From: the human T2T-CHM13v2.0 reference genome, Homo sapiens
Assembly (NCBI RefSeq): GCF_009914755.1
Contig: NC_060926.1
Length of the DNA: 64,000 nt
Direction: 5' to 3' (one strand)
The first letter of the stretch is position 1. Each line of letters opens with the position of its first letter. The position numbers and the translations under genes are program-made. Below are positions 16,224 through 52,292 of this stretch, in pieces. The notes beneath the pieces are model-generated. The model was given only the letters and a program-made list of their open reading frames with translations. It was not told the DNA's origin and did no database searches.

Positions 16224-16233
16224 GTGTTAAAGA

Positions 16234-16922
<689 letters not shown>

Positions 16923-51161: not shown

Positions 51162-51699
51162 CTAACATCTGTCCACTTTCATTGGTTTGGCAAAGGGGTT
51201 GAGGTCTGTTGCTGCCTGGACTCCCTGTGAATGTGTGTCTCCCACATGTTAGTAGTGCCCGGTACTCAATCACACCATCTTTGTGTCACTCCAGTGTCCA
51301 TTTCTAAGCTGCCCCTTTGTTGATTTCAAATCCGCCATGGGCTGACTCGAAATTCTCACGCCTTGGGTCTTTATTCTCCCTTCTTTTGTCTGGTCCTGTC
51401 CCTCCCTTTGTCCTTCTGCAGAGCAAGATCCACTATTGATACAGAAGCCGCCTCCTTTCTAATTTTTTACTTCGGATTTCTGACCTTGTAGATTGATATG
51501 TTTGTTCTGTTATAAAATTCAAAAACAACCCCCAATTTTTTCATTTAATATCTTTTTGCTCTTGTTTCCAGCATACGTGAAACACTTTCAACCTTAATGA
51601 AGTTACTTAAATTGTTTTAAGTTTGCCGTATTGTCAAGTGGCAATACACATACATGAAACAGTCACTTTTGGGGGGTACAGTGGCTGAGGGTGCATTTT

Positions 51700-52292
51700 A
51701 AAAAAAACTAGTAAAGTATAACAGATAAACTGAGAAGTGTACAAACCATAAGTGTATAGCTTGATGAGACATACCCATGTAATCTGCACCAAATTAAGAA
51801 ACAGAAAATTGGAGTCTCTGAGCCTACTATGGCTCAGAAGCCTGCCTGATTCAAAATCTTATTATTTAAAAAAGGGAAAAAAAGAAAGAAACAGAATTAT
51901 CAGTACTCAAGGAGAGTCTCTAGTTACTTAGTATTCTTCCTCCATATCCTGACTGCTTATACACAGATCAATCAGCTTTGCCTATTTTTGAATTTTTACA
52001 AATGGAATCATGTAGTGGATATTCTCTCACCAGGGGCTTCTTGTGCTCAAGGTTATATTTGCGAGATTTCTCTTACTGTTGTATCTAATTTGCTTATTTT
52101 TTTCATTGCTATATAGCATCCCATTGTATGTATGTACCAAATGTGTCAGTTATGTTGCTAATGGTATTTGGATAGTTTCCGGTTTGGGGCTTTCATGGAC
52201 AGTGCTGCTGTGAACATTCTAGTAGGTGTTTCTGTTGGGTATATATATACCTAGGAGTGAAATTACTGGGTCAGGGATACACACATGTTCTG
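51700..52292 (-). mobile_element. Old L1M 3' fragment
   Basis: aatggaatcatgtagt...cccattgtatg...tttggggct...gctgctgtgaacatt...acctaggagtgaaattactgggtca. Confidence 0.7.
51811..51885 (+). mobile_element. Retroposed 42-nt MER57 R-region fragment with A-rich tail and TSD
   Basis: ggagtctctgagcctactatggctcagaagcctgcctgattc plus A-rich tail; flanked by aagaaacagaaaatt / aagaaacagaatt; similar to the minus strand of 16600-16642. Confidence 0.65.

What the first reader, a model, noticed from the sequence alone, without database searches (positions are those of the whole stretch)
51796..51898. 42-nt hairpin RNA from a MER57 LTR transcription start, apparently retroposed by L1: possible LTR-derived micro-retroposon family
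Seen: an old antisense L1 is interrupted at a TT|AAGA-type site by GGAGTCTCTGAGCCTACTATGGCTCAGAAGCCTGCCTGATTC (51811-51852) plus a degenerate A-rich tail (51853-51885). It is flanked by a near-perfect TSD (aagaaacagaaaatt / aagaaacagaatt). The insert has a perfect 8-bp stem, TCTGAGCC-tactat-GGCTCAGA, and resembles the sequence just downstream of the CATAAA box in the window's own MER57 LTR (minus strand of 16600-16642). Established: A-tail, TSD and an L1 endonuclease site are hallmarks of target-primed reverse transcription. Inference: the 5' end lies at the LTR start site and the 3' end stops before the LTR poly(A) signal. The template may therefore have been a short promoter-proximal, TAR-like hairpin transcript that was adenylated and mobilised by L1, a SINE-like route that repeat annotation would dismiss as an LTR fragment.
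Basis: partly seen in the sequence, partly recalled or inferred. Interest (0 to 1): 0.8.

Follow-up and report, generated by a model that had tools for sequence, protein, structure and literature searches.

The report
LTR hairpin RNA retrocopies made by L1
A roughly 40-base hairpin RNA from the very start of an old endogenous-retrovirus LTR transcript was copied back into the human genome dozens of times by the LINE-1 machinery, and the window holds one such copy.

Summary
The sequence features are as described. A 42-nt LTR-like hairpin (51811-51852) is followed by an A-rich stretch, flanked by a 13/15-nt target-site duplication at a TT|AAGA site.

It is not a one-off. Searches of the window's own genome gave 36 inspected isolated copies, plus 3 probable ones. 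All inspected copies start at the same LTR position, 30 nt downstream of a CATAAA box. Thirty-one of the first 35 end 38-44 nt later, just 3' of the hairpin and about 20 nt before the LTR's ATTAAA signal. They carry A-tails and A-rich-start TSDs. Fourteen of 33 carry an extra 5' G, which the literature attributes to copying of the cap.

In two samples chosen only by an exact 18-mer, 19 of 109 element-derived sites are such copies. Capture-recapture suggests about 65 in total. Two copies run from the same start to the canonical poly(A) site, which supports a Pol II start.

Best reading: a capped, promoter-proximal hairpin RNA, 3'-tailed and retroposed by L1. These are dead-on-arrival retropseudogenes, not a SINE.

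Open points: the MER57 name, the L1 identity of the flanks, empty sites in other primates, and whether the window copy ends at +42 or further on. My literature searches found no description.

The parts
51796..51810 (+). 5' target-site duplication (aagaaacagaaaatt); the target reads tt|aaga at its 5' edge
   Evidence: sequence; automatic TSD call AAGAAACAGAA, preceded by aatt
51811..51846 (+). Retrocopy body, LTR positions +1 to +36: the hairpin (8-bp perfect stem 51817-51824/51831-51838, 6-nt loop, extended imperfect stem)
   Evidence: MFE -16.9 to -17.5 kcal/mol, z about -2.8; 87-93% identical to 39 other genomic sites; aligns to LTR copy L142 from position 0/+1
51847..51852 (+). LTR positions +37 to +42 (TGATTC), the short 3' overhang after the hairpin where most family members end
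51853..51885 (+). A-rich tail. Its first 15 nt or so (AAAATCTTATTATTT) may instead be decayed LTR sequence +43 to about +58, which would make this copy a longer, R-only-like form
   Evidence: (similarity to LTR +43 onward not significant: 42/300 and 31-46/500 shuffles reach the observed score)
51886..51898 (+). 3' target-site duplication (aagaaacagaatt)
16535..16660 (-). Distantly related LTR in the same window: CATAAA box (16660-16655), hairpin from 16642, GTTAAA (16579-16574), LTR end at 16535. It has about 12 nt fewer between box and GGAGTC than the family's LTRs
   Evidence: sequence; 16/18 local match to the insert; hairpin -19.2 kcal/mol, z -3.1, with a different 3' arm

Best explanation
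The insert is an L1-made retrocopy of a very short RNA polymerase II transcript from an ERV1-type LTR.

Proposed pathway:
1. Transcription began at the LTR's own start site (GGAGTC, 30 nt after the CATAAA box), and the RNA was capped.
2. The first 36 nt folded into a stable hairpin.
3. The RNA ended only 2-8 nt past the hairpin base, about 20 nt before the LTR's ATTAAA signal and about 40 nt before the canonical cleavage site.
4. This short RNA acquired a 3' A tail, often after one or more extra U.
5. L1 ORF2p used it for target-primed reverse transcription at TT|AAAA-like sites.

The copies carry no promoter and are dead on arrival. The 'family' is therefore a set of independent retropseudogenes from many LTR loci, made while that ERV family was transcriptionally active.

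Shown: the shared 5' end, the clustered 3' ends, the tails, the TSDs, the excess of extra 5' G, and several source variants.

Inferred: how the 3' end arose (premature termination or pausing, followed by 3'-5' trimming back to the hairpin), which enzyme added the tail, and that L1 did the copying.
For: **Location in full LTRs.** In 27 of 30 loci from the first genome search the 42-mer lies inside a full LTR. It sits exactly 30 nt after CATAAA and is followed by ...ATTAAA... and the LTR end.

**Isolated copies.**
- Tail-anchored patterns found 21 isolated copies. Reversed-pattern controls gave 0, and 3 for the looser. The flanks of the copies were read.
- Two samples chosen only by an exact 18-mer of the 3' arm gave 11 of 44 and 8 of 65 element-derived sites as isolated copies. 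I classified these by eye from the printed flanks.

**5' end.** All 35 copies then in hand align to a genomic LTR copy starting between -6 and +8. The 7 copies were found through the 3' arm and tail only, and all start at GGAG.

**3' end.**
- The distribution is +36 (1), +38 (1), +39 (4), +40 (8), +41 (3-4), +42 (8-10), +43 (1-2), +44 (2), +48 (1), +24 (1), and 1 tailless (plus five copies read by eye).
- No further class of 3' ends appeared. The search with the tail 35-65 nt after the 5' arm returned only copies ending near +40 (three already known, re-found through their long tails, and one new one). The search at 66-96 nt returned nothing.

**TSDs.**
- 13 of the first 22 copies have a flank 9-mer repeated with at most 1 mismatch, against 69 of 462 permuted pairs (p = 2.4e-6).
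- 20 of 35 have automatically called TSDs of 7-23 nt. Sixteen of those 20 start with A, and 7 of 20 are preceded by TT.

**Extra 5' G.** 14 of 33 copies have three or more G where the LTR has GG, against 3 of 76 LTRs (Fisher p = 1.9e-6). Against a 0.21 base frequency, p = 0.004. Passages in PMC3287187 attribute such untemplated G to reverse transcription of the m7G cap.

**Same start, canonical end.** Two copies run from +1/+3 to the canonical site: L085 to +79 and L159 to about +70. U3-R-A(n) copies (L086/87/91, L088, L110) mark that canonical site 12 nt after ATTAAA.

**Hairpin.** MFE is -17.5 for the window copy and about -22 for LTR copies, z = -2.7 to -3.6.

**Age.** 5'-arm divergence is 15.2% for copies (n = 19) and 13.8% for LTRs (n = 83), p = 0.28.
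Against: - No RNA data were available, so the short RNA, its cap and its tail are inferred from DNA copies only.
- A tail on a 40-nt RNA with no AAUAAA-type signal needs a non-canonical route that I cannot identify.
- 15 of 35 copies have no automatically clear TSD. With A-matches down-weighted, only 8 of 22 exceed the 95th percentile of controls.
- T at +42 occurs in 8 of 10 copies that reach it, against 18 of 74 LTRs (p = 3e-4). Other extra T at the body-tail junction are also unexplained. They could point to uridylation or to termination in a T run.
- The window copy itself may extend past +42.
- The sister LTR subfamily has a hairpin only about 2.6 kcal/mol weaker but yields about 25 times fewer copies by the same criterion (1 of 276 against 10 of 109). 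Hairpin stability alone therefore does not explain the yield.
- L1 involvement rests on hallmarks, not on an assay.
- Empty sites in other primates were not examined.
Confidence: 0.8

Rival explanations
1. Template-switch chimeras. The short LTR RNA had no A tail of its own. L1 reverse transcriptase began on the poly(A) of an L1, Alu or mRNA template and jumped to the free 3' end of the small RNA, as proposed for U6/L1 chimeras.
For: It removes the need for adenylation of a 40-nt RNA. Chimeric L1 insertions with small RNAs are an accepted class (10.1101/2025.02.02.635956, abstract and passages). Three copies have a full-length Alu starting shortly after the tail (C6:17.67M, C22:26.23M, C2:24.01M).
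Against: None of the 36 inspected copies has L1 or Alu 3'-end sequence between the hairpin and the A run. In the three Alu cases an A-rich stretch separates hairpin and Alu, and the Alu is full length. That fits a later Alu insertion into the tail.
Confidence: 0.1
2. An RNA polymerase III product. The CATAAA box at -30 acts like the TATA box of a U6-type promoter, transcription starts at G, and it stops in the T-rich ATT(T) just after the hairpin.
For: There is a TATA-like box at -30 and a G start. The 3' ends are T-rich: T precedes the tail in 23 of 35 copies as I read them. T is enriched at +42. L219 ends in TTTT. From recall, Pol III small RNAs are frequent L1 passengers.
Against: Most LTR copies read ATTC at +39 to +42 and have no run of four T (53 C against 18 T). 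The extra 5' G fits an m7G cap. Copies with the same start end at the canonical ATTAAA-dependent site, which is a Pol II feature. No PSE was tested.
Confidence: 0.05
3. Randomly 5'-truncated retrocopies of longer LTR-terminated transcripts, or plain deletion remnants of solo LTRs, so that the shared boundaries are coincidence.
For: L1 retrocopies are often 5'-truncated (general knowledge). Retrocopies of longer LTR-containing RNAs do exist here, namely the U3-R-A(n) copies L086/87/91, L088 and L110.
Against: 35 of 35 copies start within -6 to +8 of one position. The A tail sits about 40 nt upstream of the canonical cleavage site, whereas the U3-containing copies all end at that canonical site. 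TSDs and tails rule out deletion remnants for most copies.
Confidence: 0.03

Closest known systems
HERV-W processed pseudogenes (L1-mobilised retroviral transcripts)
   Same: ERV RNA copied by L1. The copies start at R and have a poly(A) tail, a TT/AAAA motif and 5-15-nt TSDs (PMC5537654, abstract and passages). The two R-only copies and the U3-R-A(n) copies found here are of this type.
   Different: HERV-W copies are kilobase-long R-U5...U3-R transcripts ending at the canonical site. The copies here are 36-44 nt, end before the poly(A) signal, and come from another LTR family. That review calls HERV-W the sole HERV group mobilised by L1.
Retropseudogenes of small structured RNAs, including the pre-miRNA retrocopies of mir-373 and mir-498
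   Same: A whole small hairpin RNA with the A tract joined directly to its 3' end, plus TSDs and no promoter (PMC7692494: abstract and sections 9 and 13). U6, Y and 7SK pseudogenes are similar by recall.
   Different: Those cases comprise 2 + 4 events across primates from Drosha-type precursors whose 5' end is a cleavage site. Here there are at least 36 copies in one genome, the 5' end is a transcription start with a cap signature, and the source is an LTR promoter.
HIV-1 TAR and its short attenuated transcripts (recalled, not checked in a paper here)
   Same: A hairpin at +1 of R. Short promoter-proximal RNAs have 3' ends at or just past the hairpin base.
   Different: There is no sequence similarity and no evidence of a Tat-like activator. 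The hairpin is 36 nt against about 59. The short RNA here is inferred only from DNA copies.
SINE-R / SVA (LTR-derived sequence mobilised by L1)
   Same: LTR-derived sequence spread by L1, with untemplated 5' G in about a third of genomic copies (PMC3287187 passages).
   Different: SVA is a composite, transcribed and still-propagating element. The copies here are single-hit and have no promoter.

Membership tests
L1-mediated (target-primed) retrocopy | Target-site duplication of about 7-20 bp flanking the insert | tested here: met
   Window copy: 13/15 nt. Family: 13/22 against 69/462 permuted controls, p = 2.4e-6; 20/35 called automatically, 7-23 nt; 15/35 unclear.
L1-mediated (target-primed) retrocopy | 3' poly(A) or A-rich tail directly after the copied RNA | tested here: met
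   34 of the first 35 copies and L219 have an A run after the body; 1 (C2:240.84M) is tailless. The window copy's tail is degenerate.
L1-mediated (target-primed) retrocopy | Insertion at a TT|AAAA-like endonuclease site | tested here: met
   Window: tt|aaga. Among 20 clear TSDs, 16 start with A, positions 2-4 are mostly A or G, and TT precedes in 7.
L1-mediated (target-primed) retrocopy | Empty orthologous site in an outgroup | not testable with these tools
   Only the window's own genome is held. A paralog-based substitute failed.
SINE (self-propagating non-autonomous retroposon) | Copies carry their own (internal) promoter, so that copies can seed further copies | tested here: not met
   Copies begin at +1 and lack U3 and the CATAAA box. 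They carry several LTR-subfamily variants (CA/TG at +25/26, CT insertion, CAATT/TGATT/CGATT), which points to many source LTRs.
HERV-W-type processed pseudogene | Transcript runs from R to the canonical poly(A) site of R | tested here: not met
   The short copies end at +36 to +44, before ATTAAA at +62 to +67. Only L085 and L159, and possibly the window copy, approach the canonical end.
MER57 LTR (ERV1) as the source family | Match to the Dfam/Repbase MER57 model, with the insert mapping to its R region | not testable with these tools
   No repeat library is at hand. What is shown is an LTR architecture: CATAAA, +1 hairpin, ATTAAA, an end in ...aaca, and a TGG-starting primer-binding-like site in some loci.
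TAR-like promoter-proximal hairpin | Stable hairpin beginning at the transcription start, kept across subfamilies | tested here: met
   MFE -22.5, -21.8 and -19.2 kcal/mol (z -3.6, -2.8, -3.1) for three LTR types with different arm sequences. One sister copy is weak (-10.2, z -0.6). The mean over 83 LTR copies is -17.3.
TAR-like promoter-proximal hairpin | Short transcripts ending at the hairpin base are actually produced | not testable with these tools
   Inferred only from the retrocopies' 3' ends. No RNA data.
Known RNA family (Rfam) | Match to a curated covariance model | tested here: not met
   No relevant match in 51500-52200 at E up to 10. Two chance-level hits lie elsewhere.

The most novel reading that the evidence does not exclude
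The +1 hairpin of this ERV's LTR acted as a TAR-like attenuator, so most initiations released a capped hairpin RNA of about 40 nt. After U/A tailing this RNA is a stem-loop placed directly against an A tail. That is the arrangement proposed as the L1 recognition element at the 3' ends of L1 and Alu (PMC5135761, abstract only). Being such a good minimal L1 template would explain why it outnumbers the normally polyadenylated R-only RNA about 19 to 1 among retrocopies. If so, micro-retrocopies are a genomic fossil record of ancient promoter-proximal termination. The same census could then map start sites and attenuation sites of other extinct LTR promoters.
Probability: 0.3. Interest if true: 0.8.

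Novelty: new variant of a known kind. Interest (0 to 1): 0.65.

Why it matters
The review I read states that HERV-W is the only HERV group mobilised by L1 (PMC5537654). Here a second ERV lineage left dozens of L1-made copies, and they come from an RNA species not usually thought of as an L1 substrate: a promoter-proximal capped transcript of about 40 nt.

- The copies fix the LTR's transcription start to the base, without RNA data.
- They record 3'-end heterogeneity and possible U/A tailing of an ancient short RNA.
- They offer a natural test of whether a stem-loop next to an A tail is enough for L1 trans-mobilisation.
- In practice, repeat annotation would list these as tiny LTR fragments plus (A)n, so the class is easy to miss.

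Tried and rejected
- **Rfam** on 51500-52200: nothing relevant.
- **Within-window BLAST** of the insert: only the self-match and chance words of 12 nt or less. The match to the window's LTR was 9-12 nt.
- **Paralog test of flank continuity**: the left flank matched only itself. The right flank gave three paralogs that align only from 51950 onward. Continuity of the host repeat across the site was therefore not shown.
- **L1 identity of the flank**: A stop-free 40-aa ORF (52030-52149, minus strand) hit nothing in Pfam or PDB.
- **Window tail as LTR sequence**: inconclusive.
- **Hairpin strength as the cause**: the sister subfamily gives far fewer copies, but its hairpins are only modestly weaker. 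This is not a clean test.
- **Other 3' ends**: searches for copies ending elsewhere in R found none.
- **Literature**: two sequence strings of the hairpin occur in 0 papers. Word searches on MER57 and start sites, on solo LTR / R region / LINE-1, on short capped RNA and retrocopies, on TAR-like ERV stem-loops, and on L1-mediated ERV1 processed pseudogenes returned nothing describing such copies. Subscription journals and bioRxiv supplements were not searchable.

Full report
**The observation.**

- GGAGTC...GATTC at 51811-51852.
- A perfect 8-bp stem (51817-51824 with 51831-51838) around a 6-nt loop.
- An A-rich stretch to 51885.
- Flanking repeats of 15 and 13 nt (51796-51810 and 51886-51898) that differ by a 2-nt indel.
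- A target reading tt|aaga.

The 42-mer folds at -17.5 kcal/mol, z = -2.7; 5 of 200 shuffles fold as well.

Three sub-claims are weaker:
- The flanks could not be shown to be L1. Three paralogs align only to 51950-52130, and a 40-aa ORF there hits nothing in Pfam or PDB. The L1 label is my recall.
- The likeness to the window's own LTR (minus strand from 16642) covers only 16 of 18 columns; 17 of 1000 shuffles do as well.
- The 'tail' starts with a T-rich block that may be LTR sequence (see the section on the window copy).

**What the 42-mer is.**

The window's assembly can be searched. The 103-nt region gave 40 scored matches, and I read 30 of them with flanks.

In 27 of the 30 the 42-mer lies inside a complete LTR. 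There it begins exactly 30 nt after a CATAAA box. About 20 nt later comes ATTAAA, and then the LTR end. In some loci a TGG-starting primer-binding-like site follows. So the insert's first base is where a TATA-type promoter should start transcription.

The other three loci are the window copy and two further isolated copies with the same first base and an A tail (L006, L018).

**A family.**

Patterns that ask for part of the hairpin followed by an A run gave:

| Distinct places | Reversed-pattern control |
|---|---|
| 7 | 0 |
| 10 | 0 |
| 5 | 0 |
| 4 | 0 |
| 14 | 3 |

Their union is 21 copies besides the window's. I read the flanks of all of them.

To avoid bias from asking for a tail, I listed every exact occurrence of two 18-mers of the 3' arm and fetched all flanks not yet seen:

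| | First 18-mer | Second 18-mer |
|---|---|---|
| Sites | 46 | 66 |
| Unrelated GC-rich chance matches | 2 | 1 |
| Full or partly deleted LTRs | 32 | 56 |
| U3-R-A(n) retrocopy | 1 | 0 |
| Copy from the start to about +70 | 0 | 1 |
| Short isolated copies | 11 | 8 |

I made this classification by eye from the printed flanks. So 19 of 109 element-derived sites are short isolated copies.

With one more copy from a sister subfamily (L219), 36 copies have been inspected.

For a total, the tail-anchored set holds 21 copies and the 18-mer set 19, with 6 shared. That gives about 65 by Lincoln-Petersen. The figure is rough, because the two sets are not fully independent.

**Boundaries.**

All 35 copies then in hand align to a real genomic LTR copy (L142) starting between -6 and +8, mostly at +1. 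The 7 copies were found without reference to the 5' arm, and all start at GGAG.

The 3' ends (plus five copies I read):

| End position | Copies |
|---|---|
| +24 | 1 |
| +36 | 1 |
| +38 | 1 |
| +39 | 4 |
| +40 | 8 |
| +41 | 3-4 |
| +42 | 8-10 |
| +43 | 1-2 |
| +44 | 2 |
| +48 | 1 |
| tailless | 1 |

When the A run was sought 35-65 nt after the 5' arm, the only copies returned ended near +40: three already known, re-found through their long tails, and one new one. At 66-96 nt nothing was found. So the ends form one cluster just 3' of the hairpin, about 20 nt before ATTAAA.

**Hallmarks of L1.**

- A 9-mer at the 5' junction recurs downstream with at most 1 mismatch in 13 of the first 22 copies, against 69 of 462 permuted flank pairs (p = 2.4e-6).
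- With A-matches down-weighted, 8 of 22 exceed the controls' 95th percentile and 7 exceed the 99th.
- An automatic call finds clear TSDs in 20 of 35 copies, 7-23 nt long. Sixteen start with A and 7 are preceded by TT. Fifteen of 35 are unclear, often because the target was itself an A run.

**Evidence for a capped Pol II start.**

Where LTRs read GG, 14 of 33 scorable copies have three or more G, against 3 of 76 LTRs (Fisher p = 1.9e-6). Against a 0.21 chance that the flank supplies a G, p = 0.004. Passages in PMC3287187 attribute untemplated 5' G in L1 and SVA insertions to copying of the m7G cap, and give about 33% for genomic SVAs.

There is independent support from longer copies. L085 starts at the same place, ends 12 nt after ATTAAA and has a 15-nt TSD. 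L159 starts at +1 and ends at about +70. Copies that include U3 (L086/87/91, which are duplicates on C9; L088; L110) all end at that canonical site.

The LTR therefore had an ordinary R of about 79 nt. The short copies stop half-way through it.

**Sources and age.**

The short copies carry several LTR-subfamily states: CA or TG at +25/26, presence or absence of a CT insertion, and CAATT, TGATT or CGATT after the hairpin. They lack U3. So many LTR loci served as sources and the copies could not propagate themselves.

The window copy shares a 19-mer found at only three places in the genome: itself, the isolated copy at C3:110.91M, and the full LTR at C9:115.36M.

Against one genomic reference copy, the 5' arm differs by 15.2% in copies (n = 19) and 13.8% in LTRs (n = 83), p = 0.28. 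This includes subfamily differences, so it shows only that copies and LTRs are of similar, old age. One copy sits inside an Alu, and three have an Alu just after the tail.

**Mechanism.**

Shown: a discrete RNA running from +1 to about +40, very probably capped, was copied with an A tail at L1-type targets.

Inferred: the RNA arose by promoter-proximal termination or pausing and was trimmed back to the stable hairpin. This resembles what I recall for HIV-1 TAR short transcripts. It was then tailed by a non-canonical polymerase.

An unexplained detail is the excess of T at the body-tail junction. T at +42 occurs in 8 of 10 copies that reach it, against 18 of 74 LTRs (p = 3e-4). I also read CCC-TTT, CG-T, TG-T and TGATT-TT junctions. 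This may mean 3' uridylation before adenylation, or termination in a T run.

Rivals:
- Template switching by the L1 enzyme cannot be excluded, but none of 36 copies has L1 or Alu 3' sequence before the tail.
- A Pol III origin is unlikely. Most LTRs read ATTC with no run of four T, the G signature fits a cap, and copies with the same start use the ATTAAA site.

**Subfamily contrast.**

A sister subfamily has 276 exact sites of its own 18-mer. Only 1 of them has six A within 12 nt, and 19 of 19 sampled sites are full LTRs. By the same criterion the two main variants give 10 of 109 by my count (Fisher p = 2e-5).

The sister hairpins are only modestly weaker: mean -14.7 kcal/mol (n = 19) against -17.3 (n = 83). 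Promoter strength or timing may matter as much as the hairpin.

**The window copy.**

It fits the family at its 5' end, TSD and target site. Its tail is odd: 12 of 33 bases are not A, and they include the block TCTTATTATTT. The string AAATC-TT-ATT lines up in register with LTR +44 to +58. The match is not significant, however: 42 of 300 shuffles reach it in a local alignment, and 31-46 of 500 in an anchored one.

I put about two-thirds on an end at +42 with a decayed tail. The remaining third is on a longer, R-only-like copy.

According to the hub's table, the copy lies in intron 1 of DPYSL5, in the sense orientation. I see no sign of function.

**Comparison with what is known.**

- HERV-W processed pseudogenes are the accepted case of L1 copying ERV RNA. 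The review I read calls HERV-W the sole such group (PMC5537654, abstract and passages).
- Pre-miRNA retrocopies with the A tract joined directly to the hairpin are described for mir-373 and mir-498, as 2 + 4 events (PMC7692494: abstract and sections 9 and 13).
- Stem-loops in R of gamma-like ERVs, and an R of about 70 bp, are noted in PMC3601003 (passages).
- A stem-loop next to the A tail has been proposed as the L1 recognition element (PMC5135761, abstract only).

I found no description of short LTR-start hairpin retrocopies. Two sequence strings occur in 0 papers, and six word searches found nothing. Subscription journals and closed supplements were not covered.

**Verdict.**

It is a new variant of a known kind: L1-made retropseudogenes of small RNAs. 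Here the source is a promoter-proximal capped LTR transcript. Interest is 0.65.

Noticed in passing
body-tail junctions of the isolated copies (e.g. L032, L045, L066, L092, L104, L118, L219): Extra T just before the A tail. T at +42 occurs in 8 of 10 copies against 18 of 74 LTRs. Junctions such as CCC-TTT, TG-T and TGATT-TT also occur. This may reflect 3' uridylation before adenylation, or termination in a T run.
   Followed up: partly
L099 (G000:C1:169206758, minus strand): This copy has an A16 run on its 5' side as well as an A24 tail, between the two TSD copies (GCCATGCC). The cause of the 5' A run is unclear.
   Followed up: no
L102 (G000:C2:240838742): A copy that ends at about +42 with virtually no A tail, yet has a TSD of about 10 nt (GGACCT[G/C]A[G/A]G). 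It resembles the 'tailless retropseudogenes' named in a paper title seen only in a search listing (PMC5322556).
   Followed up: no
L093, L100, L192: Three of 36 copies have a full-length Alu starting within about 20-40 nt after the hairpin. These are most likely later Alu insertions into the A-rich tail.
   Followed up: no
L086, L087, L091 (three places on G000:C9): The same U3-R-A(n) retrocopy, with identical flanks, occurs three times on contig 9. It was evidently carried along by a segmental duplication.
   Followed up: no
L002, L022/L023, L026, L029, L030 (just after the LTR end): Proviral copies continue with a TGG-starting primer-binding-like site. From memory it looks closest to a tRNA-Leu 3' end; this was not tested.
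   Followed up: no
LTR positions about +39 to +50 in many loci: The stretch after the hairpin often reads as a short palindrome of the TTCnnGAA type. I recall this as heat-shock-element-like. No test was made.
   Followed up: no
window 16226-16556 and 16535-16900: The window's own related LTR (minus strand) abuts an antisense Alu directly at its 3' end. It has about 12 nt fewer between CATAAA and GGAGTC than the family's other LTRs.
   Followed up: partly
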